A DNA stretch of 64,000 nucleotides from a phage, in the sequence record PZ445530.1. One strand, given 5' to 3'. Both the position numbers and the translations under genes were made by a program. Shown in pieces: positions 7,907-64,000 of this stretch. How positions within the stretch are numbered: position 1 is the first letter of the stretch; every line of letters begins with the position of its first letter. The notes below the pieces were generated by a model. It had not been told where the DNA came from, did no database searches, and worked only from the letters and a program-made list of their open reading frames with translations.

Positions 7907-9129
7907 GCGTTATTCAACAATTCGCTAACCCGATGAATCCGCGTGAAACTGTTTTACTGGCTCACGGCATGATTAAACGCGTCAGCATCAAGCCTATCAA
8001 AGGTGCTGATCCTACAACAGGTATTAAAACCACTGTGTGGCAAGGTAAGAAAATTGAGTCCAGCCACACCATCTCTTTACTGATTTCTGAACTGGATTCC
8101 TCTGATAACCTACTTCAAGGTGGTGAAGAAGTTTGGATCAGTATGGGCGATAAGCTGCTTAAACCGGGTCATCAAGACTCTGTCTCTGTTAAAATTGATG
8201 ACAAGTGGGAAACCGTAACGCCAGGATGGATCGTAAATATCCCTTTGAAGGCAAACGAGCATAACGGTAAGACCTACTACAAAGGCTCACTGGCTAAGAT
8301 GGTTAAGCTGGGTGCAGGAGAGGCTCCAGCAGCGACTCAGCAGCAAAAACAGCAACAAGGTGCACAATCACAAGGCCAGAAGCAGAAACCTCAGCAGAAT
8401 GCCAATCAGGACGTTTTACGCATCTATGGTGATGTGACTCAGATTGTTGGCAACGTGGTTACTGTTAATGACCACAAGATTGGCGAAGGTGCTATGGTTG
8501 TAACTGATGAGCAGCTTAAAGACCTGGTGGTAGGTGGTCGTGTTGCAGCCATTGTTGACAAAGACACCGGAAACATTATCAGTGGTTTCAAAGCCTATCC
8601 TCCTAAGGCAGAGAACGGTACTCAAGGCTCTGGTGGCAAGCGTAAATCCTCTTACGACCCTATCGGTGTGGAAACGGGGCATAGCATCAATGCGTTGCAA
8701 ATCATCCTGGATCGCGGGTTTAAGGTAGACGACCCACTAGGAGTGGCTAAAACACTACACGTAGTCACTATTGAGCTTAAGAAAGAGTATGCTCAAGCCA
8801 CCAACCGAACTGAAGATGAAGTAGGTGCCAGTGTCGGTAATGCGGTGTTGAACGCTTGTCGCCGTATTGACAAGAAAACGAAAGTTGATGATTTTGCAGC
8901 GGCAATTACTGCAGAAGCAAAAGATGTCTTGACTAATCTGGCTGAGCCGTTGTACGATTGGATCAAGAACGGTGCTGGGTCAACTGACCATCAAGAACCT
9001 CAGGCTGCCAAACAGGAAGCAGCTCCACAGCAAAACACTGTAGACGCTCCTCCTGTAAATGATGGGGAAGATGACCCGATGGATCAGAATCCAGCACAGT
9101 ACGCCTTTGATGATGACATCCCATTCTAA
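7903..9129 (+). CDS. Putative single-stranded DNA-binding protein
   Basis: C-terminus AFDDDIPF matches the acidic SSB tip (DDDIPF); Gln-rich linker; position in replication block. Confidence 0.5.
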   Translation: MSVIQQFANPMNPRETVLLAHGMIKRVSIKPIKGADPTTGIKTTVWQGKKIESSHTISLLISELDSSDNLLQGGEEVWISMGDKLLKPGHQDSVSVKIDDKWETVTPGWIVNIPLKANEHNGKTYYKGSLAKMVKLGAGEAPAATQQQKQQQGAQSQGQKQKPQQNANQDVLRIYGDVTQIVGNVVTVNDHKIGEGAMVVTDEQLKDLVVGGRVAAIVDKDTGNIISGFKAYPPKAENGTQGSGGKRKSSYDPIGVETGHSINALQIILDRGFKVDDPLGVAKTLHVVTIELKKEYAQATNRTEDEVGASVGNAVLNACRRIDKKTKVDDFAAAITAEAKDVLTNLAEPLYDWIKNGAGSTDHQEPQAAKQEAAPQQNTVDAPPVNDGEDDPMDQNPAQYAFDDDIPF

Positions 9130-9145
9130 CATCTAGTTAACATAG

Positions 9146-9173
9146 CCCTGCCCGAAAGGGTGGGGCATTTTTG
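9146..9173 (+). terminator. Intrinsic terminator-like hairpin
   Basis: ccctgccc-gaaa-gggtgggg stem with GNRA loop followed by cattttt. Confidence 0.5.
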
Positions 9174-9191
9174 TATAAGGAGATCTGAAAA

Positions 9192-9608
9192 ATGACATTA
9201 GAAGATATCATTGTTAAACCTGAGAACTATGACCAATACAACCTGTCAACTCAATCTGTAGACCTTGGATGCGCCACAGTTAGTGCGTGGCTGGTTAACG
9301 GAAAAGAGCTGGACAAGTGCTTAGAAGCTCACATGTCTGTTAACAAGTTTCTGGATGAAAATACTCACTGGCTGGAAGGTGCAGGCGTATATGCTTCATG
9401 GTTGGAGAGCATGGGCTTTGACTATCAATCTGATGAAGGGTGGTGGAGCTATCTAGCTATCTGTCCAGAAACACGGCAATGCTTCATGAAATACTCTGAA
9501 GATCTTGAGTACCGAGCGGTGGTTGATAGTGCTATTGCCCGTTATAGCCGTAAACCTTTTTCCCACGACATTAAAACTGTGGAAGAATTTGTTGAAGTTT
9601 TCTGTTGA
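9192..9608 (+). CDS. hypothetical protein
   Basis: ORF; SD aaggag upstream. Confidence 0.5.
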   Translation: MTLEDIIVKPENYDQYNLSTQSVDLGCATVSAWLVNGKELDKCLEAHMSVNKFLDENTHWLEGAGVYASWLESMGFDYQSDEGWWSYLAICPETRQCFMKYSEDLEYRAVVDSAIARYSRKPFSHDIKTVEEFVEVFC

Positions 9609-9704
9609 CACAGGTTGAAAGGTGTGCAATTATAACTTCATATAACGGGAGGACGCGATGAACGAAGAAAACTGGGATGTATAACTAACAGGAGGCCACT
9701 GCCC

Positions 9705-9902
9705 ATGATTTATCGAATCCGTGTAAGAGAAGATGCACCAGGCTGTTACTTTGACTGGCGTGGGTGGTGGTTTCTCCACCCAATGGATGGACTCACAGAT
9801 AGAATGCTGGATGCTGCCCTTTATACAGATACCGACATAGAATATAATCTCTATCTGAAGGACGGTATAGATAACGGTCTATTTGAAGCAATTCCTGTGT
9901 AA
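9705..9902 (+). CDS. hypothetical protein
   Basis: ORF; SD caggagg upstream. Confidence 0.45.
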   Translation: MIYRIRVREDAPGCYFDWRGWWFLHPMDGLTDRMLDAALYTDTDIEYNLYLKDGIDNGLFEAIPV

Positions 9903-9967
9903 GAGACTGTGATAGCCATGTTTTATGATCTTCCTGTAGCACCACCTGTTGAACCTAGAGAACTAAG

Positions 9968-10393
9968 ATGATCTATGAAATGCCAAAACTGATTCGTGAC
10001 GATGCCCAAAACGCTAACACCATTATTATGGGCAAACGCATGGATATTATTTGTCATAAAGATTTCTGGGAAGGGAGTTACTTCACAGAGTATTTTGGTA
10101 AACTGGACAATGGTCTGCTGATCCAGTTCTACACCGATGCGGAAAACAATATCTGCTGGGAGTTCGAAACTGAAGATATCCATAAACTTTTCACCTTCCT
10201 AGGTATTAAGGTTGAGGCCAAGTTCGAAGAAGGTGAGTGCGACGATTGTGGATTCTACGAGGTAACAGATTTCTATCTCCCAAGTGGTGAGAACCTTTAC
10301 TATGAAAGCCACTTCGGTAACTCCAATATGCCACAGTGCTGGACTGAGTTTTTTGAAATTGCGGAAGAGGAGCTGGCATACCGTGATTATTGA
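9968..10393 (+). CDS. hypothetical protein
   Basis: ORF. Confidence 0.5.
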   Translation: MIYEMPKLIRDDAQNANTIIMGKRMDIICHKDFWEGSYFTEYFGKLDNGLLIQFYTDAENNICWEFETEDIHKLFTFLGIKVEAKFEEGECDDCGFYEVTDFYLPSGENLYYESHFGNSNMPQCWTEFFEIAEEELAYRDY

Positions 10394-10841
10394 TACTGTA
10401 GAGGGAGATTTAATCTCCCTTTTTAAGAGCGGTGCTGGTCACCTGATCCACGGTTGTAACTGCTTCCACACAATGGGCAAGGGGATAGCAAAACAGATTT
10501 CCCGTGAGTTCCCTCAAGCATTGGCAGCTGACAAAGAGACTAGATATGGTTGCCTAAGTAAACTGGGTGCGTTCTCCCGATGGGAGCACTTATCTCCGAG
10601 AGGTATTGTCTACGGAATCAATCTGTATACTCAGTTCTACCCAGGACCTAATGCTGAATATTTCTCAATTCTGAAAGGCTTTGAGCTAGTCAATGAGGTA
10701 TTCAGTAGATCGACTTTACCATTCTACATCCCTAAGATCGGGTGCGGCATAGGCGGTTTGAAGTGGGAGCACGTAGAGGACGTTATTAACCTTGCCACTT
10801 TTGATATGGATATTATCGTGGTAGACTACAAAAAGTGTTGA
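10383..10841 (+). CDS. Putative macro-domain (ADP-ribose binding/processing) protein
   Basis: Macro-like pattern VEGDLISL..HLIHGCNCFHTMGKGIAKQI and IPKIGCGIGGL; probable GTG start after SD gaggag. Confidence 0.45.
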   Translation: MIIDTVEGDLISLFKSGAGHLIHGCNCFHTMGKGIAKQISREFPQALAADKETRYGCLSKLGAFSRWEHLSPRGIVYGINLYTQFYPGPNAEYFSILKGFELVNEVFSRSTLPFYIPKIGCGIGGLKWEHVEDVINLATFDMDIIVVDYKKC

Positions 10842-10894
10842 CAGCTGGTTTTTGGGATGGTGTAGTCACCACAACGATTGAGATAGGGAGCACT

Positions 10895-11065
10895 ATGGAG
10901 ACTAAAATCTTAATTCTAGCTGTGATAGATACAACCGAAGGGGCTGTGTTCGAATCTGCAGGAGGGTATTTCTACCTACCCTACGGAAAAAGAACTGCTG
11001 AACCAGGTAAAGATTCAATCATCAAAGTGTTCCCGTGTGCTTTCTGGCTGGAGATTTTGGTATAA
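10895..11065 (+). CDS. hypothetical small protein
   Basis: ORF; SD gggag before ATG 10895. Confidence 0.35.
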   Translation: METKILILAVIDTTEGAVFESAGGYFYLPYGKRTAEPGKDSIIKVFPCAFWLEILV

Positions 11066-11091
11066 GATTGCAGAGGATTTGGGAGAGAATT

Positions 11092-11286
11092 ATGAGAAAC
11101 AAGAGAGAGCTTTACTCTGGCGAGTGGATAAACGATCAACAGGTTGGAGAGGTAACCTGCTTCCGGTGTTTTACTCGGTACAATCTTAAAACTGCACCAA
11201 AAAGTATTCCAAAGACTGATGGTTATTACATAAAAGAACCTCATTGCCCGAAATGTAAATGCCGATTATACTGGAGCAACCTGTAA
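11092..11286 (+). CDS. Small zinc-ribbon protein
   Basis: CFRC ... CPKCKC cysteine pairs; SD gggagag upstream. Confidence 0.4.
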   Translation: MRNKRELYSGEWINDQQVGEVTCFRCFTRYNLKTAPKSIPKTDGYYIKEPHCPKCKCRLYWSNL

Positions 11287-11290
11287 AAGA

Positions 11291-11318
11291 TTGACATCTG
11301 AAAACTACAGTGTATAAT
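11291..11318 (+). promoter_or_regulatory. Consensus sigma70-type promoter
   Basis: ttgaca - 16 nt - tataat (perfect hexamers). Confidence 0.6.
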
Positions 11319-11349
11319 ATACGCACAGACTAACAGAGAGCGATGTATT

Positions 11350-11541
11350 ATGGTAATTTTTAACCGGGATGGTATCATAGTTAGACAGCACCCCTTCCTT
11401 GAATACTATCAAATTGAGCAATGGTGCTACGGGGATTGCAGTCACTCCTATGGGCAAAGTTGGGGATATCGCACAGTTTTTGAATCAACAGACCTTGACA
11501 AAGTAAGACAGAAAGTTTTAGAACTTATTAACAACAAGTGA
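11350..11541 (+). CDS. hypothetical protein
   Basis: ORF downstream of consensus promoter. Confidence 0.45.
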   Translation: MVIFNRDGIIVRQHPFLEYYQIEQWCYGDCSHSYGQSWGYRTVFESTDLDKVRQKVLELINNK

Positions 11542-11550
11542 GTATGATAC

Positions 11551-11883
11551 ATGGTAACATTAGAAAGACGTAAAGCTATCGCCGCCACACTGGCAGACAT
11601 CTTTTGGGATTGCAACTTAAAAGATACCCGAAATTGTGGCGCATCTGTAGATGTATTATTCCCACGGCCCACCATTGTTGCAATGGGAAACCTGTTAAAC
11701 GTAGTGTACGGAGCATGGGACAAAGAAGGTGGATTCTATATCTGGCAACCTGACTACGGAGCCTGGAAAGAGGTAAGGGGTGCGGATGACTTTGGGCCTA
11801 CAGTTGCTAAGATGGATGGCTGGGAAATTTATGTTGGAAACGACATGAAGCTGAAAGGCGAGATTGTTTACTGGTTACCTTAA
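11551..11883 (+). CDS. hypothetical protein
   Basis: ORF. Confidence 0.5.
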   Translation: MVTLERRKAIAATLADIFWDCNLKDTRNCGASVDVLFPRPTIVAMGNLLNVVYGAWDKEGGFYIWQPDYGAWKEVRGADDFGPTVAKMDGWEIYVGNDMKLKGEIVYWLP

Positions 11884-11903
11884 GAAAGTGCAGGAGATAA
11901 AGT

Positions 11904-12149
11904 ATGAACAAAGGGTGGACATTTGTAGACGGCGTTAAAAACATGCCTCTAGGAAAGTATATCGTAGCCATGGCTGATGAGGATGGCAATGTAGATTTCG
12001 GAGCTTGCGAGGTTGTTCTTGCAGGATCTGGTAACTATGTGAGTAAAACCGGGATAATTAACGGTCAGTTCTACTTTGATCACAACCCTGTTGTAGCGTA
12101 TATGACTATGCCAGAGTTCAAGTTCCCAAAGGAGGGTGCAGATGTTTAA
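11904..12149 (+). CDS. hypothetical protein
   Basis: ORF; SD caggag upstream. Confidence 0.5.
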   Translation: MNKGWTFVDGVKNMPLGKYIVAMADEDGNVDFGACEVVLAGSGNYVSKTGIINGQFYFDHNPVVAYMTMPEFKFPKEGADV

Positions 12150-12339
12150 GCTTAAATCTGCATGGAACATCGCTGTGGGGGACGAGATCCGTATCCCAGG
12201 TGGAAAGACCATTATGAAGATATCTCGTATTGAGTACGAAGGTGACCGTGTATTCCACATCCTCGCAGAAGATGGTCGAGAAATTTATATACAGGCAGGT
12301 TCTCACATTTATATCCGTAAGAAAGGGGACGACAAATGA
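12142..12339 (+). CDS. hypothetical protein
   Basis: ORF; SD aaggaggg before ATG 12142. Confidence 0.45.
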   Translation: MFKLKSAWNIAVGDEIRIPGGKTIMKISRIEYEGDRVFHILAEDGREIYIQAGSHIYIRKKGDDK

Positions 12340-12665
12340 CAGAGATCATCATTTCAACTGCAGGGTATGTGTTCCTGACAATCATTGCACTGACTATTTT
12401 GGTGACAGTGTATGGGTTTGTTATCCTTCCTATCCTTGAGACATTTAGTTTGTGTCGGTGTTGGAGAAAAGCTTACGGTCCACAACCATGGAAGGACTGG
12501 CCCCACCTGGTGCGCTTAGCGTTCTCTTATGCTTACGATCACTCCAGTAGTGCATGCATAACCGGATACCACGCCCACAACTGGAGCTGGGAAGGATTGA
12601 GGAAATGGAATGTTACAAAGACCATACCTCTACGCATGTACAAACCTAAAAACAAAGACAGCTGA
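12336..12665 (+). CDS. Small membrane protein
   Basis: Hydrophobic N-terminal segment; SD aaagggga upstream. Confidence 0.5.
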   Translation: MTEIIISTAGYVFLTIIALTILVTVYGFVILPILETFSLCRCWRKAYGPQPWKDWPHLVRLAFSYAYDHSSSACITGYHAHNWSWEGLRKWNVTKTIPLRMYKPKNKDS

Positions 12666-22504: not shown

Positions 22505-24935
22505 CTGCTCTTCTCCTACCATAAACGGCCCTACCTGGCAAGTGGAATAATTGACTAGCCATCAATCCCACATACTGTACAAATATACATGGAAAATAAC
22601 TATTGCATAATTTTTCATTGTGTGGTAGCAAGTCCATTTTTACCCGTTTTCTCTCCCAAAAGTGCACGTAATGCCGCTATTGCACAAATTTTAACCTGAT
22701 GCACATCTCCAATATCTTGTCAACAACTAAAAATCTTTATAAGTCATACACTTACACAGCATCGAAAGCGTGTTCTACGCGAAAAATCGAGTATAACTAT
22801 AGCCGCCAGATCTCAGAATTCACGTACGCACGCCATTCTATAGCCTGCAAAGTATTTATTCCAACCACAGAATAACGGAATAGTCAATACCTGCATAAAA
22901 TAATTATTCGTGCAAACTGCATAACATAAATCAGCTCAGGTGTCAACATTTTTCGTAAACAGTCCGAAATTATAACGATGAGTTATCATAAACAGAGAAA
23001 TCTTTAGTCGTCTAATGTTTACTGTACATTACTATACTGACTGGAATCATTAGATGACTAAGAGAAAGATAAGAAATAATTAATAATGTAATTATTTTAC
23101 CTGTAACAATAAGGCAACTATGCAAACGAATGGCATGGCGCGACGGAGTCGCGACATAATATAAAAGCAGTAACCATCACCCCCGTGATAGTTTGTCTGC
23201 AAACTATTAATCAGATCATAGTTGCCTTGTATTTAGTTAATCATGACATAACAAGCAAGGCAACTATAGATCTGCTAATAGTTGCCCTGCTTTTATATTA
23301 TGTCATGCTAATTATAATCAGTGCGATTATTGTCATGTATAATTATTGTCATGCAAACGAATGGCATGGCTGATTATCGGTGTGTAAACAGTCAATCATG
23401 TAAATGGTTAGCATGTGAACAATCAGGAATGTAAACAATCCAGTGTGTAAACTAATAGGTGTGTAAAAGTGTCATGTTGTGTCAGTTAGGTCACATTATG
23501 TCAGACAAGTTTTTCTCCTCTTTGTCAAGTGCTGCATGAAAAATTTACAAACTGGTATGGTAGCATTTTTGCGGCCCTGTTTACATTCAGTAATGTATGT
23601 ATAATCCTTGTTGTGTGGGCGTTTAGACGTCTAGACGGTTGGAAGTCCACAGGTCAATATCTAATCTATCGGCTGCTAACTATATCCCACACAAATAGCA
23701 AGAAATATGATTGTTATATGCGTAAACTGTAACTCATGTTATCAATCCCTGTATGGATCGCCAGTGGTGCGCATAATGGGTATTATGTTAAATTGCCCGT
23801 AATGATAACTATTCTCACAATGATAGGTATTCTCATTCATCCACATAAAATAGGTTGCAAATGTTGTGCCACTGTGTGAACGGCCTGGCCTATTAATTTG
23901 CCTCACTGCCTTGATATTTGAGAATTGTTATAAGAATGAGAAGTATTCCCATTTCGTCCGCCTGGCAGCACTCCTGTAGGTCAGGTCAAAATCGTGGTAG
24001 AATTGGGCCTGTTCAGATATTTCTGGCTGACTCTTCAGGTCTGTGTGGGAAAAGCCAACCTCTCCGGCGGGGCAGGGGGTCATGACGGGAAAATTGCAGG
24101 TCAATTAAAAATTTACGTGGTGTATGAAGCGCTCTTCAGGTAAGGCATGTATTATGGGATGAAACCCGCTTCAGGCAATGATATTTGTGGGTGTGATATT
24201 TGCTGGAAAGCCAGATATGACGGGACTCCCGGCGGGGATGGGGTAGTACAGACAGGGAAAATATGAGAATGTAGTTGGGGAAATTGATCAGACAGGTAGA
24301 GTATGGAATATGTTACAAGTATGTTAAATATGGAGGTTGAATATCTGTAGGATTTGTGTGTAAAATCAAAGACTTAAGGGGTGTTGTGGTATTTTCTATA
24401 AATAATTCAAGTTTAATAGGCAATATTTGTCTCTATCCGTTTTGTGTGGTAAACAGATTCAGATTAGATTGGTTTACAAGTGTATACATAATATACAAAT
24501 TAAAGATACAAGAAACCCCCCTCCCCCCTTCGGCTACCATTCACCTTTTCCTCTGACTGGTACTTAAACACTTATTCAGACTCTTCAGGTTATCACCCAT
24601 ATATCATATGGCAGTGACTGGTGTCCTCCGGCCCCTCTTTCGTCACCCGTCCGCTTCGCCATGCTAATGCCATAGCCAATGGTTCGGTTGTTCACCCTGT
24701 TCACTCAGGTGTATCTCCATACCCCTTCAAACCGAAGAGAACAGAAAACCCGAATTACTCGGTAAAAGAAAAGAGAAGAACTTAATTTTATCAGGATAGG
24801 CAAGAATGTCAAGGCATGACTGCTCACTAAACAAGCAAACAGTCATGTGTGGAAGGTAAGTGATTGTGGTGGTGGGAAATTTAGTTGAAAGATGTGTTAT
24901 AGGTGCTTCCAGCACTTTAGCCGGGCAGCTAATTG
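22505..24935. repeat. Repeat-rich non-coding region at the convergence of plus and minus transcription
   Basis: No convincing ORF; inverted repeats ggcaactat/atagttgcc; tgcaaacgaatggcatggc x2; tgtaaaca-type iterons 23380-23470; CTCTTCAGG x4; duplicated tccggcggggcagggg unit. Confidence 0.5.
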
Positions 24936-24939
24936 TGTG

Positions 24940-25155
24940 TCAGTCCAGCGGTTCATCCTCTACTTCACTGAAATCAATGTTCATGGTCTCTTCCCAACCA
25001 TCGATCTCAGCACAAGAGTGGAGTTCTTTAGGGTTTACTCCCAAAGCCTCAGCAACAGAGTCTATATTTAACACCTCTGGCAGGTATGATTCATCGAATT
25101 CAAGGTAAATCAGGCCACGAGTGTTGTCAGCTCCACCAAATATTTCTATCTTCAT
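24940..25155 (-). CDS. Small acidic protein (MKIEI family)
   Basis: N-terminus MKIEIFGG, acidic C-terminus; SD ggagatt upstream. Confidence 0.45.
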   Translation of the reverse strand: MKIEIFGGADNTRGLIYLEFDESYLPEVLNIDSVAEALGVNPKELHSCAEIDGWEETMNIDFSEVEDEPLD

Positions 25156-25276
25156 GAAATCTCCTCTGGAAATGAGAGTGTGAACAGGGTTTTATACGTT
25201 CCGATGCACAGGAATTATGCACGTTTGCCTCTTCAGGCCATGCTTTAGCATGAGGAACCTGTGTGGGCTCGGTGCT

Positions 25277-25489
25277 TCATAGTCTACCACCCCTGAACTC
25301 TTCGTGCTCAGGCATAATAGAGAACCAGATATCTACGATGTCTTCCCACGTTAGGTCATCAGCCTCAGGATCTACCTGGAGCGAAGATGGAGAATCTTCA
25401 GAATCTAAGTTTTCCTCTTTCACTGGCTCAGCCAAGGGACATATAGTCACTCCTTTGGATGTCTCTTCAGATGCATGTGTGTTTATCAT
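25277..25489 (-). CDS. Small acidic protein
   Basis: ORF; ATG overlaps upstream TGA. Confidence 0.45.
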   Translation of the reverse strand: MINTHASEETSKGVTICPLAEPVKEENLDSEDSPSSLQVDPEADDLTWEDIVDIWFSIMPEHEEFRGGRL

Positions 25490-61305: not shown

Positions 61306-61380
61306 GCCCTGTTAGCTTAGTGGATAAAGCAGCGGCCTTCTAAGCCGTTGACACTGGTTCGAGTCCAGTACGGGGTGCCA
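61306..61380 (+). tRNA. tRNA-Arg (anticodon TCT)
   Basis: Cloverleaf by hand: acceptor gccctgt/acggggt, T-loop ttcgagt, anticodon loop cttctaa, encoded CCA. Confidence 0.6.
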
Positions 61381-61384
61381 AATT

Positions 61385-61471
61385 GGGGAGTTATCCCGTA
61401 GAGGTAGCGGTGTAGACTGTAAATCTATTGTCATTACGACTCGGGTGGTTCGACTCCACCACTTCCCACCA
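61385..61471 (+). tRNA. tRNA-Tyr (anticodon GTA), class II long variable arm
   Basis: Acceptor ggggagt/acttccc, anticodon loop ctgtaaa, long variable arm, T-loop ttcgact, CCA. Confidence 0.55.
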
Positions 61472-61585
61472 AATTTATAGTTTTAAATGCATAAATCATA
61501 CAGATAATGGCATTGATATTTATCGTCGTTTATACTAGTCACTAACTGCTCGAAAATCAGTGTCATTATCAGTATTGTTTATAAA

Positions 61586-61676
61586 TGAGGGTAGGGAGCA
61601 ATGGTGCTCAAGCGGTCTTGAAAACCGTCCCGTTGAGGATGACTCGATGATGGTTCGATTCCATTACCCTCAGCCA
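61586..61676 (+). tRNA. tRNA-Ser (anticodon TGA), class II
   Basis: Acceptor tgagggt/accctca, anticodon loop cttgaaa, long variable arm, T-loop ttcgatt, CCA. Confidence 0.5.
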
Positions 61677-61774
61677 TATTGTTGACCTTGTAATTAAGCG
61701 AAAGCCGGAAGCAGAACCGGATTATCAAATGTTACAGTCGTCATCGCCGACTAGCAACATGGTCAACATACTGA

Positions 61775-61871
61775 GCTAGGTAAGCCCTTTGGCAAGGGCG
61801 AGGATTTTTAATCCTGAAAATAGACGAGGTAGTCGTTGAATACATAGGTGGTTCGATTCCATCACCTAGCA
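61775..61871 (+). ncRNA. Aberrant tRNA-like element (97 nt)
   Basis: Acceptor gctaggt/acctagc and T-arm ggtgg-ttcgatt-ccatc are canonical, but anticodon arm folds as aggat-tttta-atcct (5-nt loop) with about 30-nt extra arm. Confidence 0.3.
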
Positions 61872-61879
61872 CCTTTTTT

Positions 61880-61955
61880 GCTGATGTAGCACAATTGGTA
61901 GTGCAATTGATTTGTAATCAATAGGTTGCAGGTTCAAGTCCTGCCATCAGCACCA
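61880..61955 (+). tRNA. tRNA-Thr (anticodon TGT)
   Basis: Acceptor gctgatg/catcagc, anticodon stem attga/tcaat with loop tttgtaa, T-loop ttcaagt, CCA. Confidence 0.6.
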
Positions 61956-61956
61956 T

Positions 61957-62031
61957 GGCCCTGTAGCTGGAAGGTTCAAGCAAGCGACTCATAATCGCCA
62001 GACGGTGGTTCAATTCCACCCAGGGCCACCA
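61957..62031 (+). tRNA. tRNA-Met or Ile2 (anticodon CAT)
   Basis: Acceptor ggccctg/cagggcc, anticodon loop ctcataa, T-loop ttcaatt, CCA. Confidence 0.6.
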
Positions 62032-62043
62032 AATAATAAATAC

Positions 62044-62119
62044 TCCGCGTAGCTCAGCTTGGTAGAGCGCCTGATTTGGGATCAGGAGGTCGAGTGTTCG
62101 AATCACTCCGTGGAGACCA
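62044..62119 (+). tRNA. tRNA-Pro (anticodon TGG)
   Basis: Acceptor ctccgcg/cgtggag, anticodon stem cctga/tcagg with loop tttggga, T-loop ttcgaat, CCA. Confidence 0.6.
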
Positions 62120-62540: not shown

Positions 62541-62939
62541 ATGATTTCAGTTTTAACATGGCTGAGTAGGTATAGAGGGATCATAAAAGGTTTAGTTTTT
62601 GCAGCTGCGCTAGGTACAGCTTATCTTGGAGCCGTATATTGGTTTAACTTTAAGCTTAATGAAGCCTACCAAGAGGGTGTGTCAGCAACAGAGTTAAAGT
62701 GGGAACGGATCCTTGATCAGCAACAAAAGCAGGCCGACAAAATTAAAATGGGCCACGCAGAGGAGGTTAAAAACCTTGAAAAATCCCTTTCTGATCTGCA
62801 GGATAAATTAAATATGGCTGAGAAGGCAGGTAAAGAAAAGCAGATTATCTACCTCCAGTCACCTGAAGGCAAGAAGTCAACACTCCCTGATCAGCTTATA
62901 GATATTTATAATGAGAGTATCAATCAGGAGGATCGATGA
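62541..62939 (+). CDS. i-spanin (Rz-like)
   Basis: N-terminal TM segment IIKGLVFAAALGTAYLGAVYWF then coiled-coil-like periplasmic domain; adjacent to lipoprotein gene. Confidence 0.6.
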   Translation: MISVLTWLSRYRGIIKGLVFAAALGTAYLGAVYWFNFKLNEAYQEGVSATELKWERILDQQQKQADKIKMGHAEEVKNLEKSLSDLQDKLNMAEKAGKEKQIIYLQSPEGKKSTLPDQLIDIYNESINQEDR

Positions 62940-63223
62940 GAGTTGCTACACTGGTTATTGTGTGCTTGTTATTATGTGGGTGTGCAACCAACGTTGAGAG
63001 AGAATACAAGATTGACCCTCCGGATGTAGGAAGGTTGATTGTTAAACCCCCGGAAGGTGCCATGAAACCACCTGCTAAAGCTATGCCTTTGAAGAAAGGT
63101 GCGCCAGATGCAGTGAATTCTGGCATTATGAGGGATAATAATCTGTCTTGTAGCAATGATAGAGCTAAATTGATCATTTTGCAAGACTATATTAGAACAC
63201 TGTTTCCAAAGGAGAGCGGTTAA
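62936..63223 (+). CDS. o-spanin (Rz1-like lipoprotein)
   Basis: Lipoprotein signal with LLLCGCA lipobox-like cysteines; Pro-rich mature part; start overlaps i-spanin stop. Confidence 0.6.
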   Translation: MRVATLVIVCLLLCGCATNVEREYKIDPPDVGRLIVKPPEGAMKPPAKAMPLKKGAPDAVNSGIMRDNNLSCSNDRAKLIILQDYIRTLFPKESG

Positions 63224-63648
63224 TGTCTAAGATTTACGGACCGTGTTCTGAAAAGCAGAAGATGATCCTCGAAAACGATGCAGATATTTTGGTAATCGGC
63301 GGTGCCGCAGGGTCTGGCAAGTCGTTCCTCTTGCAATTGATGCCACTTAAAATTATTGATGACCCCCACAGCTCTGTGGTTATGTTCCGAAGAACAACCC
63401 CGCAGTTGGAAGGTGAGGGTGGACTATGGCCTAAAGCGGTAGCTATTTATAGTGATCTGCCTGAAAACATTAAGCCAAAGTTCAGAGAGAAGGATCATAA
63501 GTTCATTTTTCCACGGTTTGATCCGAACACTGGCAAGTGGGATAGAAGCAAAAAGGGAGCTGTTGTAAAATACTGCCACATGGAGTATGTACAAGATAAG
63601 CTTAACCATCAAGGGCTTGAGTACACCATGGTTTGCTTCGATGAGGGT
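63223..63648 (+). CDS. Terminase large subunit, exon 1 (ATPase N-terminus)
   Basis: Walker A VIGGAAGSGKS; Walker B MVCFDEG at exon end; stop codon lies inside group I intron. Confidence 0.7.
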
Positions 63649-64000
63649 TAATTTGTAGCTCTCGTAAAACCTCCCTAATTGCGGGGAAATCTTTACTATT
63701 AATACCACCAACCTGTCATGGTAACATGATAGAGGCTTCGAAGAGAGATCGAAGGTATGGTAACAGTGTGTTAATTTAGATAATCCGCAGCGAAGCATCC
63801 GAGAGGATGAACGTTCAACGACTAGTCGAAAGACGTAGAATCAAGCGATTCGAAACGGGAGGATAAGCGGTTGTTGTCGCTTATAAGATATAGTCTGGTC
63901 TGCATGGAGACATGCAGCTGCCTGAAAATGGCGGGGCAAGACTAGCGACCTTGCCCGAACATAAACGACACAATTCGAATGGGAGCAGATAGACTATCTG
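63649..64000 (+). mobile_element. Group I intron interrupting terminase large subunit (3' end beyond window)
   Basis: P aattgcggggaaa 63677-63689, Q taatccgcagcgaag 63781-63795 (identical 15-mer to pol intron), R gttcaacgacta 63813-63824, S aagatatagtc 63885-63895; no long ORF inside. Confidence 0.65.

What the first reader, a model, noticed from the sequence alone, without database searches (positions are those of the whole stretch)
10383..10841. Candidate macro-domain protein in the early region
The ORF carries a macro-like pattern (GD..., HGCNC, GKGIAKQI, IGCGIGG). Macro domains bind or hydrolyse ADP-ribose derivatives, which could reverse ADP-ribosylation or remove NAD-derived signalling products. 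The assignment rests on motif resemblance only.
Basis: inference. Interest (0 to 1): 0.5.

Follow-up and report, generated by a model that had tools for sequence, protein, structure and literature searches.

The report
Phage macro-domain ADP-ribose eraser (AdfM-like)

Summary
Window 10383-10841 (+) is a 152-aa CDS with a GTG start and a GAGGAG ribosome-binding site 10 nt upstream.

It is a macro domain:
- Pfam Macro scores above its gathering cut-off.
- The AlphaFold2 model has pLDDT 96.
- The best PDB fold matches are TARG1, Poa1p and DarG.

The window is a Vequintavirus (rV5-like E. coli phage). Sister genomes already annotate this same CDS as a macro domain protein, phosphatase or O-acetyl-ADP-ribose deacetylase.

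The new point is its family. It is the reciprocal best hit of T4 Tk.4 (40% identity over the full length). It is 66% identical to the protein in the tk.4 position of the T4-like phage GEC-3S. A 2025 preprint names Tk.4 AdfM and reports that deleting it sensitises T4 to DarTG2.

The most likely function is therefore removal of DarT2-added ADP-ribose from thymidines in phage single-stranded DNA. This is untested in Vequintavirus.

One nuance: this clade replaces DarG's catalytic lysine with an invariant glutamine (NLYTQ), and it shares the HxCN motif with Streptomyces SCO6735. It is not DarG-type and differs from PhiKZ AdfM.

No ADP-ribosyltransferase, NADAR or DarT gene was detected elsewhere in the window. 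The finding is correct but ordinary.

The parts
10383..10841 (+). CDS of 152 aa plus stop: a stand-alone macro domain of the ALC1-like/TARG1 class, in the T4 Tk.4 (AdfM) family
   Evidence: ORF and translation. Pfam Macro 27.5 bits against a cut-off of 22. PHROG 335 at 2.7e-59. AF2 pLDDT 96.3. Foldseek PDB top hits are TARG1, Poa1p and DarG. 40% identity and E 3e-42 to T4 Tk.4. The same CDS is annotated in relatives.
10367..10372 (+). Shine-Dalgarno-like GAGGAG, 10 nt upstream of the GTG start. It lies inside the 3' end of the upstream ORF, which suggests translational coupling.
   Evidence: Read directly from the sequence. The 11-nt overlap of the upstream CDS with the macro CDS is conserved in BP9, JES2013, EPFV3 and rV5_ev147.
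10449..10463 (+). H23-G-C-N26-C motif. N26 is invariant in the family and aligns with SCO6735 N27, TaqDarG N22 and PhiKZ AdfM N23. H23 aligns with SCO6735 H24 and Poa1p H23.
   Evidence: Alignments A1 and A2 and HMMER alignments. Mutant data for SCO6735 N27S come from PMC9411070. Mutant data for PhiKZ gp104 N23A come from PMC13309987.
10476..10499 (+). G32-K-G-I-A-K-Q-I39, the glycine-rich loop 1 of the macro fold that binds ADP-ribose phosphate. G32 is conserved in at least 90% of the 45 homologues; G34 and A36 are invariant.
   Evidence: Alignment A1. It aligns with 'MGKGIALQF' of DarG.
10620..10634 (+). N80-L-Y-T-Q84 motif. The invariant Q84 occupies the position of the catalytic Lys of DarG (K80) and TARG1 (K84), and matches Q85 of SCO6735.
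   Evidence: Alignments A1 and A2 and HMMER alignments to 5m3i, 5m31 and 5e3b. SCO6735 Q85A is inactive (PMC9411070).
10731..10757 (+). P117-K-I-G-C-G-I-G-G125, the glycine-rich loop 2 that binds the diphosphate. P117, I119, G120 and G125 are invariant.
   Evidence: Alignment A1. It matches 'PRIGCGLAGG' of SCO6735 and BT1257, against 'PPLGVGNGG' of DarG.

Best explanation
The gene encodes a catalytically competent, stand-alone macro-domain ADP-ribosyl glycohydrolase. It is the Vequintavirus member of the phage T4 Tk.4 (AdfM, 'anti-DarT factor macrodomain') family.

Proposed mechanism. During infection the host toxin DarT2, of the DarTG2 toxin-antitoxin defence, uses NAD+ to attach ADP-ribose to thymidines in single-stranded phage DNA, which blocks replication. 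The phage enzyme binds the ADP-ribose through its two glycine-rich loops and hydrolyses the ribose-thymine bond, restoring normal DNA so that replication continues. It acts as an orphan antitoxin-like eraser: it has no DarT-binding C-terminal domain and no toxin partner.

Its active site is of the SCO6735 type (His23, Asn26, Asn80, Gln84) rather than the DarG/TARG1 lysine type. Catalysis is therefore probably by substrate positioning and an activated water, not by a lysine nucleophile.

Shown here: the macro fold, membership of the Tk.4 family, conservation of active-site residues, and purifying selection.
Taken from the literature: T4 Tk.4 is needed against DarTG2 (preprint), and SCO6735 removes thymidine-linked ADP-ribose and needs Q85 and N27.
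Inferred: the Vequintavirus protein has the same substrate and role.
For: Fold and domain:
- Pfam Macro scores above its cut-off.
- The AF2 model has pLDDT 96.3 and pTM 0.91.
- Foldseek PDB hits are TARG1 2.8e-10, Poa1p, TaqDarG 1.9e-9, MtbDarG, BT1257 and SCO6735, all with probability 1.00.

Closest curated sequence models are DarG:
- NCBIfam antitoxin_DarG matches at 1.2e-12, over the macro part only.
- PADLOC DarG matches at 5e-14.
- Among PDB sequences the best match is MtbDarG.

Homology to T4 Tk.4:
- tblastn finds T4 at 40% identity over 99% of the query, E 5e-32.
- The T4 locus is annotated Tk.4.
- The pairwise E-value is 3e-42.
- Reciprocally, Tk.4 has a single significant hit in the window, at 10383-10832.
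- Both proteins fall in PHROG 335.
- The window protein is 66% identical to the GEC-3S protein in the syntenic vs-X-tk position.

Function of the T4 homologue: tk.4 was the single significant hit when the T4 transposon library was screened on a DarTG2 host, and a clean knockout sensitises T4 to DarTG2 (bioRxiv 10.1101/2025.11.20.689424).

Active site: N26, N80 and Q84 are invariant in 45 homologues. They align with SCO6735 N27, N81 and Q85. SCO6735 removes thymidine-linked ADP-ribose, rescues cells from DarT toxicity, and is inactivated by Q85A and nearly so by N27S (PMC9411070).

Selection: dN/dS is 0.12-0.14.

Lineage context: other Vequintavirinae carry a NADAR eraser against DarTG1 (PMC11825919), so DarTG pressure on this lineage is documented.
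Against: - No experiment exists for any Vequintavirus macro protein. The Bas54 (Vequintavirus) transposon library was not reported on DarTG2.
- The T4 evidence is genetic, comes from a preprint, and includes no biochemistry on Tk.4.
- Identity to Tk.4 is only 40%.
- The catalytic lysine of DarG is absent. Activity on DNA therefore rests on the analogy with SCO6735, from which the phage clade also differs: Gly24 replaces Val25, and the lysine-rich mobile loop is missing.
- Macro domains are promiscuous. His23 and Thr30 align with Poa1p H23 and S30, so ADP-ribose-1''-phosphate or protein substrates are not excluded.
- The genomic context is uninformative. All neighbours belong to PHROGs of unknown function.
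Confidence: 0.65

Rival explanations
1. It erases ADP-ribose from proteins or RNA rather than DNA. It might reverse modifications made by other host ADP-ribosyltransferase defences or toxins, or tune a phage-encoded transferase.
For: TARG1, the top structural match, is a protein glutamate/aspartate ADP-ribose hydrolase. SCO6735 acts on proteins as well as DNA (PMC9411070). The family is found in 2822 phage records from many hosts, and stand-alone in bacterial chromosomes without a DarT2 neighbour within 4 kb in 77 loci. That spread suggests a substrate broader than one defence system.
Against: In T4, which does encode the ADP-ribosyltransferases Alt, ModA and ModB, the only reported phenotype of tk.4 is DarTG2 sensitivity. 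No ADP-ribosyltransferase domain was found among window ORFs of at least 90 aa; the obvious ribonucleotide-reductase genes were not scanned. The TARG1 Lys/Asp dyad is absent.
Confidence: 0.15
2. It is a small-molecule ADP-ribose metabolite enzyme, as the database labels say: an ADP-ribose-1''-phosphate phosphatase (Poa1p-like) or an O-acetyl-ADP-ribose deacetylase. It would tidy up by-products of RNA repair or sirtuin reactions.
For: PHROG 335 is labelled 'phosphatase', and relatives are annotated phosphatase, O-acetyl-ADP-ribose deacetylase or Poa1p-like. Poa1p is among the best fold and sequence matches. The IHGCNC...T30 stretch aligns with Poa1p IHSCNC...S30, including the two residues, H23 and S30, that the PDB depositors mutated.
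Against: These labels are inherited from homology, not tested. The invariant N80 and Q84 of the family are not explained by the Poa1p comparison. From my own recollection of the Poa1p sequence, not checked here, Poa1p lacks both. The window shows no tRNA-splicing 2'-phosphotransferase or sirtuin that would generate such metabolites. The T4 homologue has a defence-specific phenotype.
Confidence: 0.1
3. It works mainly without catalysis. It might bind and inhibit DarT2 directly, or sequester or degrade ADP-ribose-derived immune signals such as those of Thoeris.
For: Catalytically dead SCO6735 Q85A still inhibits DarT in vitro by interaction (PMC9411070).
Against: Every residue needed for catalysis in SCO6735 (H, N, Q and both glycine loops) is invariant or nearly so across 45 diverse homologues, as expected for an enzyme. 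The protein lacks the DarG C-terminal DarT-binding domain; it is 152 aa, all macro. No evidence links this clade to cyclic ADP-ribose signals.
Confidence: 0.05

Closest known systems
Phage T4 Tk.4 = AdfM (anti-DarT factor macrodomain; bioRxiv 10.1101/2025.11.20.689424)
   Same: Stand-alone protein of about 150 aa. 40% identity over the full length and reciprocal best hit. Same PHROG 335. Identical catalytic signature: HGCNCFHTMG, NLYTQF.PGPN and P.IG.GIG. Both infect E. coli.
   Different: The genomic neighbourhood differs. T4 has the gene between vs and tk.3; here it sits in an array of unknown small genes downstream of the replication genes. The anti-DarTG2 phenotype is shown only for T4.
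PhiKZ gp104 AdfM (chimallivirus DarG2-like antitoxin; PMC13309987)
   Same: A phage-encoded stand-alone macro domain shown biochemically to remove DarT2-added ADP-ribose from DNA and to rescue DarT2 toxicity. It falls in the same broad PHROG 335. The Asn equivalent to N26 is conserved.
   Different: Only 20% identity. It keeps the DarG-type lysine (FPTKDNW) and the TVN/PPLG motifs, where this protein has Q84, HGCN and PKIG. It is imported into a phage nucleus, which Vequintaviruses do not build (the last point is from my own knowledge).
Streptomyces coelicolor SCO6735 (PDB 5E3B) and Bacteroides BT1257 (2FG1/2AFC)
   Same: The catalytic architecture matches: His, Asn and Gln at the positions of H24, N27 and Q85, Asn at N81, and a P-[KR]-I-G-C-G loop. 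All are stand-alone proteins not encoded next to a DarT. SCO6735 hydrolyses thymidine-linked ADP-ribose on DNA.
   Different: About 25-27% identity. Gly24 replaces the Val25 proposed to position the catalytic water. The phage clade lacks the 5-7-residue lysine-containing insertion after the Gln. SCO6735 and BT1257 are cellular proteins, not viral.
DarG2 antitoxin macrodomain (M. tuberculosis 5M3I, T. aquaticus 5M31/5M3E; NCBIfam NF048014)
   Same: Best-scoring curated and PDB sequence relatives. Same fold. The first glycine loop, MGKGIA, is shared. The presumed substrate is the same.
   Different: There is no C-terminal DarT-binding domain and no adjacent DarT. The score is 47.8 bits against an equivalog cut-off of 250. 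The catalytic Lys80 is replaced by Gln84.
Human TARG1/OARD1 (4J5R) and yeast Poa1p (6LFR)
   Same: Top Foldseek matches, TM 0.74-0.79. Both belong to the ALC1-like class of minimal macro domains. The Poa1p IHSCNC...S motif resembles IHGCNC...T here.
   Different: The TARG1 Lys84/Asp125 dyad is absent. Their substrates are protein-linked ADP-ribose and ADP-ribose-1''-phosphate respectively, and they are eukaryotic proteins.

Membership tests
Macro domain superfamily (Pfam PF01661) | The sequence scores at or above the Pfam gathering threshold | tested here: met
   27.5 bits against a cut-off of 22, E 3.1e-6. 26 of the 45 homologues in A1 carry a precomputed PF01661 hit.
Macro domain superfamily (Pfam PF01661) | Three-layer alpha/beta/alpha macro fold | tested here: met
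   The AF2 model has pLDDT 96.3 and pTM 0.91. Foldseek against the PDB gives 186 hits at E<=1e-3. The top 19 are all macro domains and nearly all of the top 50 are, apart from a few designed serine-hydrolase entries. TM 0.73-0.79 to TARG1, DarG and SCO6735.
Macro domain superfamily (Pfam PF01661) | ADP-ribose binding or hydrolysis | not testable with these tools
   This needs ITC or an enzymatic assay. Here only the conservation of both glycine-rich loops and of the Asn was seen.
T4 Tk.4 / AdfM family (Q-type phage macro domains) | Full-length homology to T4 Tk.4, reciprocal best hit | tested here: met
   40% identity over 150 of 152 residues, E 3e-42. T4 has one matching place, annotated Tk.4. 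Tk.4 has one significant hit in the window, at 10383-10832, E 6e-36.
T4 Tk.4 / AdfM family (Q-type phage macro domains) | Shared signature HGCNC, NLYTQF.PGPN and P.IG.GIG; stand-alone protein of about 150 aa | tested here: met
T4 Tk.4 / AdfM family (Q-type phage macro domains) | Required for phage growth on DarTG2-carrying hosts | not testable with these tools
   Shown only for T4. No Vequintavirus test was found in the literature searches.
DarG antitoxin (NCBIfam NF048014 equivalog; PADLOC DarG) | Score at or above the equivalog cut-off, with full-length architecture of macro domain plus C-terminal DarT-binding domain | tested here: not met
   47.8 bits against a cut-off of 250. Only profile positions 3-138 of 338 are matched. 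The protein is 152 aa and consists of the macro domain alone.
DarG antitoxin (NCBIfam NF048014 equivalog; PADLOC DarG) | Catalytic lysine (TaqDarG and MtbDarG K80) in the FPTKKHW motif | tested here: not met
   It is replaced by the invariant Gln84 in NLYTQF.
DarG antitoxin (NCBIfam NF048014 equivalog; PADLOC DarG) | Encoded next to a DarT toxin gene | tested here: not met
   No Pfam family was found in the neighbouring ORFs. tblastn with P. aeruginosa DarT2 finds nothing in the window; the best E is 1.6.
SCO6735-type ALC1-like macro domains | Gln at the DarG-Lys position, with its stabilising Asn (SCO6735 Q85 and N27) and the preceding His (H24) | tested here: met
   Q84, N26 and H23 align with Q85, N27 and H24. 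Q84 and N26 are invariant and H23 is conserved in at least 90% of 45 homologues.
SCO6735-type ALC1-like macro domains | Val or Ile at position 25 and the extended lysine-bearing mobile loop (K89, K94) proposed for DNA clamping | tested here: not met
   Gly24 is invariant in the phage clade. Alignment A2 shows a 5-7-residue gap where SCO6735 and BT1257 have GMKTGSKG and GIYKDSKG.
Poa1p-like ADP-ribose-1''-phosphate phosphatases | His23 and Ser30 of the IHSCNCNGS motif (the residues mutated in PDB 6LFS and 6LFT) | tested here: inconclusive
   H23 and T30 align with them, but what these residues do could not be checked: no Poa1p mutagenesis paper is in the library. The rest of the sequence scores no better than against DarG or SCO6735.

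The most novel reading that the evidence does not exclude
The widespread T4 Tk.4/Vequintavirus clade was not captured from DarG antitoxins, as the 'orphan antitoxin' picture suggests. Instead it derives from, or shares ancestry with, a separate lineage of stand-alone bacterial macro proteins of the SCO6735/BT1257 kind. These use a Gln-based, lysine-independent mechanism.

If so, phages hold two mechanistically different anti-DarT2 erasers: a K-type (PhiKZ AdfM) and a Q-type (T4 Tk.4 and this gene). The Q-type may have a broader substrate range covering both DNA- and protein-linked ADP-ribose. It could then neutralise more than one ADP-ribosyltransferase-based defence.

Support:
- Q84 is invariant, and the HxCN and PxIGCG motifs are shared with SCO6735/BT1257 and not with DarG.
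- 77 bacterial loci, many of them Rhodobacteraceae chromosomes, encode stand-alone homologues of about 150 aa; 60 of the 77 show an N.YTQ motif, and none has a DarT2 within 4 kb.
Probability: 0.3. Interest if true: 0.5.

Novelty: new member of a known kind. Interest (0 to 1): 0.3.

Why it matters
If the inference holds, rV5-like phages carry a ready-made antidote to DarTG2. These phages have broad host ranges and are often proposed for biocontrol of E. coli O157 and for therapy. Their relatives carry a NADAR antidote to DarTG1.

That helps predict which E. coli defence repertoires will or will not stop these phages. It also extends the T4 AdfM result to a second large phage lineage.

The glutamine-for-lysine active site gives enzymologists a natural phage set for testing the lysine-independent mechanism proposed for SCO6735.

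The gain is incremental. The gene is already labelled a macro domain in GenBank, and the family's role has been reported for T4.

Tried and rejected
1. Longer reading from GTG 10284 (185 aa). Rejected: it overlaps the upstream ORF by 110 nt, it has no support from homologue N-termini, and the ribosome-binding site fits 10383.

2. Search for partner genes in the window (ADP-ribosyltransferase, NADAR, DarT, sirtuin, NAD salvage). Pfam scans of concatenated ORFs of at least 90 aa found only PhoH, a ClpP-like protein, ThyX, a nucleotidase, endonuclease VII, HNH, DNA ligase and DUF7238. The DNA polymerase, the helicase and the obvious ribonucleotide-reductase ORFs were not scanned. PHROG scans of the nine nearest neighbours gave only families of unknown function. 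tblastn with DarT2 found nothing.

3. Treating PhiKZ AdfM as the direct homologue. Rejected as same-clade: 20% identity, and it is of the K-type.

4. Looking for DarT2 next to bacterial homologues. None was found in 77 loci. This used a single-query tblastn, so sensitivity is limited.

5. Literature searches for any test of a Vequintavirus macro gene or of Vequintavirinae on DarTG2. None was found.

6. Poa1p mutagenesis literature. It is not in the library.

7. Promoter and terminator scan to establish 'early' expression. The number of sites is not above the shuffled expectation, 14 against 11.0 +/- 3.4, so no claim is made.

8. A 648-kb contig carrying a homologue was checked as a possible cellular DarTG context. 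It looks like a giant phage, with small unknown ORFs and ankyrin repeats.
Full report
**Observation**

The frame containing the finding is open from 10284 to 10841.

The start is GTG at 10383. It overlaps the stop codon of the upstream ORF 9968-10393 (GTGATTATTGA). A GAGGAG lies at 10367-10372, 10 nt upstream. The N-termini of homologues (T4 Tk.4 MIVKYIKGD, GEC-3S MIIDTVKGD) fit this start and not the 185-aa alternative.

The product is 152 aa and contains all the quoted motifs: G8-D9, H23GCNC27, G32KGIAKQI39 and I119GCGIGG125.

**What the window is**

A 3.5-kb stretch around the gene is 95-98% identical to about 120 phage genomes. Those with taxonomy shown are Vequintavirus (rV5-like E. coli myoviruses of about 136 kb). 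In these records the same CDS is labelled 'macro domain protein', 'O-acetyl-ADP-ribose deacetylase' or 'phosphatase'. The basic assignment is therefore already public.

**Is it a macro domain?**

Yes.
- Pfam Macro (PF01661) scores 27.5 bits against a gathering cut-off of 22.
- PHROG 335 matches at 2.7e-59.
- A single-sequence search of PDB sequences finds M. tuberculosis DarG (5M3I, 2.2e-7), Poa1p, SCO6735, BT1257 and TARG1.
- A profile built from 45 homologues (alignment A1) raises these to 3e-16 through 6e-13.
- AlphaFold2 with that alignment gives pLDDT 96.3 and pTM 0.91, with the alternating strand/helix order of a macro fold.
- Foldseek against the PDB returns TARG1, Poa1p, T. aquaticus and M. 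tuberculosis DarG, BT1257 and SCO6735. All have probability 1.00 and TM 0.73-0.79.

**Which kind of macro domain?**

All the best relatives belong to the minimal ALC1-like/TARG1 class. The closest curated models are DarG: NCBIfam antitoxin_DarG at 1.2e-12 and PADLOC DarG at 5e-14. The match covers only the macro part, and the score of 47.8 bits is far below the equivalog cut-off of 250. The protein has no room for DarG's C-terminal DarT-binding domain.

The decisive link came from a translated search of 50,697 phage genomes. 2822 records carry a homologue. Among them is T4, at 40% identity over 99% of the query (E 5e-32). That T4 locus is annotated Tk.4, 'contains A1pp phosphatase motif', and lies between vs.1 and tk.3.
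- The pairwise E-value is 3e-42.
- Tk.4 has a single significant hit back in the window, at 10383-10832.
- Both proteins fall in PHROG 335.
- The T4-like phage GEC-3S (Krischvirus) has, in the syntenic vs-X-tk position, a protein 66% identical to the window protein.

**What the family does**

The HIDEN-SEQ preprint (bioRxiv 10.1101/2025.11.20.689424) reports three things.
- tk.4 was the single significant hit when the T4 transposon library was grown on a DarTG2 host.
- A clean knockout sensitises T4 to DarTG2.
- The authors name the gene adfM (anti-DarT factor macrodomain).

DarT2 ADP-ribosylates thymidines in single-stranded DNA and thereby blocks phage replication. The macrodomain antitoxin DarG2 removes the mark (PMC11825919 introduction).

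A second, independently named AdfM is PhiKZ gp104. It was shown biochemically to remove DarT2-added ADP-ribose from DNA and to rescue cells from DarT2 toxicity (PMC13309987).

Other Vequintavirinae (Bas60-62) carry a NADAR enzyme that neutralises DarTG1. Selection by DarTG systems on this phage group is therefore documented.

The same preprint built a transposon library in the Vequintavirus Bas54 but did not report it on DarTG2. I found no direct test of a Vequintavirus macro gene.

**Active site**

In alignment A1 the invariant positions are G24, N26, G34, A36, N80, Q84, P117, I119, G120 and G125. H23, C27, M31, G32, Y82, T83, G88 and G122 are conserved in at least 90% of sequences.

HMMER and MAFFT alignments place Q84 exactly where DarG has its catalytic Lys80 (FPTKKHW) and TARG1 its Lys84. 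SCO6735 and BT1257 also have Gln there (NMIGQH). They share the H-x-C-N and P-[KR]-I-G-C-G motifs with the phage clade. DarG and PhiKZ gp104 instead have T-V-N, F-P-T-K and P-P-L-G.

For SCO6735, PMC9411070 reports the following.
- It hydrolyses thymidine-linked ADP-ribose more efficiently than DarG or TARG1, and it rescues cells from DarT.
- Q85A abolishes activity and N27S nearly does.
- The proposed mechanism is substrate positioning by Gln85 plus a water held by the Val25 backbone, not a lysine nucleophile.

T4 Tk.4 has the same Q-type signature as the window protein. So there appear to be two mechanistic kinds of phage anti-DarT2 macro domain: a K-type (PhiKZ) and a Q-type (T4 Tk.4, Vequintavirus).

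The phage clade differs from SCO6735 in two ways. It has an invariant Gly24 instead of Val25, and it lacks the lysine-bearing insertion after the Gln.

**Context and evolution**

The gene sits in a long co-directional array of small genes, downstream of the helicase and DNA polymerase genes. Pfam scans of window ORFs of at least 90 aa gave no ADP-ribosyltransferase, NADAR, sirtuin, DarT or NAD-salvage domain; the polymerase, helicase and ribonucleotide-reductase ORFs were not included. The nine nearest neighbours fall in PHROGs of unknown function. DarT2 has no tblastn match in the window. The enzyme therefore has no partner visible in the window.

Sigma-70-like sites lie upstream at 9605-9633 and 9820-9848. 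A rho-independent-like terminator lies at 9145-9166. The number of such sites is not above chance, so 'early' is plausible but not shown.

Against the rV5_ev147 allele, dN/dS is 0.12-0.14 with dS about 1. The flanks are 93-100% identical while the gene itself is 74-85% identical. This is a recombinational allele replacement under purifying selection, typical of accessory and counter-defence genes.

Stand-alone homologues of about 150 aa also occur in bacterial genomes (77 loci, many of them Rhodobacteraceae chromosomes). An N.YTQ motif was found in 60 of the 77. None has a DarT2 homologue within 4 kb. This hints that the Q-type clade is not simply a captured DarG.

**Conclusion**

- The macro-domain call is right (confidence about 0.95).
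- The specific role I consider most likely is removal of DarT2-made ADP-ribose from phage DNA (0.65).
- The rivals are erasure of protein or RNA ADP-ribosylation (0.15), hydrolysis of small ADP-ribose metabolites as the 'phosphatase' labels imply (0.10), and non-catalytic binding or signal sequestration (0.05).

The finding is a new member of a known kind. It is correct and useful for annotation, but not surprising. The only mildly novel aspect is the Gln-type active site shared with SCO6735.

Noticed in passing
window 63639-63917 (+), next to ORF 63223-63651: Rfam group I intron (RF00028, 84.3 bits, E 5.5e-20) begins right at the end of an ORF with a P-loop (GGAAGSGKSF). Relatives annotate this ORF as terminase large subunit. 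The terminase gene therefore appears to be split by a self-splicing intron. Only 53 of 123 related records cover at least 80% of this stretch, so the intron may be present in only some relatives.
   Followed up: partly
window 61306-62119 (+): Cluster of seven tRNA genes (Arg-TCT, Tyr, Ser, Thr, Met, Pro). One odd member at 61775-61873 is called by ARAGORN with a four-base anticodon (atcc). It scores only 35.5 bits with the Rfam tRNA model.
   Followed up: no
window about 23,700-25,400: A stretch of about 1.7 kb has no gene annotated in relatives (EPFV3 locus L003 34662-36408) and only short ORFs here. It lies just before the point where gene orientation switches from + to -. [quoted passage not shown] The equivalence was not checked.
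   Followed up: no
window 10380-10830 compared with L007 (rV5_ev147): The macro gene is a local divergence island. It is 74-85% identical in nucleotides, while both flanks are 93-100% identical. With dN/dS about 0.13, this indicates replacement by a divergent allele through recombination. The nearest non-Vequintavirus allele found in the phage search (66% amino-acid identity) sits at the tk.4 position of the T4-like phage GEC-3S.
   Followed up: yes
window 11291-11318 (+): A perfect sigma-70 consensus promoter (TTGACA, 16 nt, TATAAT) lies about 450 nt downstream of the macro gene, ahead of the next small ORFs.
   Followed up: no
GenBank relatives of window 9000-12500 and 62900-64000: Sixteen to eighteen records named 'Campylobacter phage' (MG0656xx, host Campylobacter jejuni) are about 97% identical to this E. 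coli Vequintavirus. They carry no annotation. The host label looks doubtful.
   Followed up: no
loci L009-L085 (bacterial genomes): Stand-alone homologues of about 150 aa occur in chromosomes of Ruegeria, Roseovarius, Shimia, Hyphomicrobiaceae, Nitrospirales and others; 60 of 77 show an N.YTQ motif. In Pelagimonas (L012) the neighbours look like housekeeping genes; this is my reading of the ORF translations, not a database result. No DarT2 lies within 4 kb in any of the 77 loci.
   Followed up: partly
window 9968-10393 (+): The 141-aa upstream ORF (PHROG 8157, unknown function) overlaps the macro start by 11 nt in all Vequintavirus records examined. This suggests translational coupling. Whether the two act together is unknown.
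   Followed up: partly
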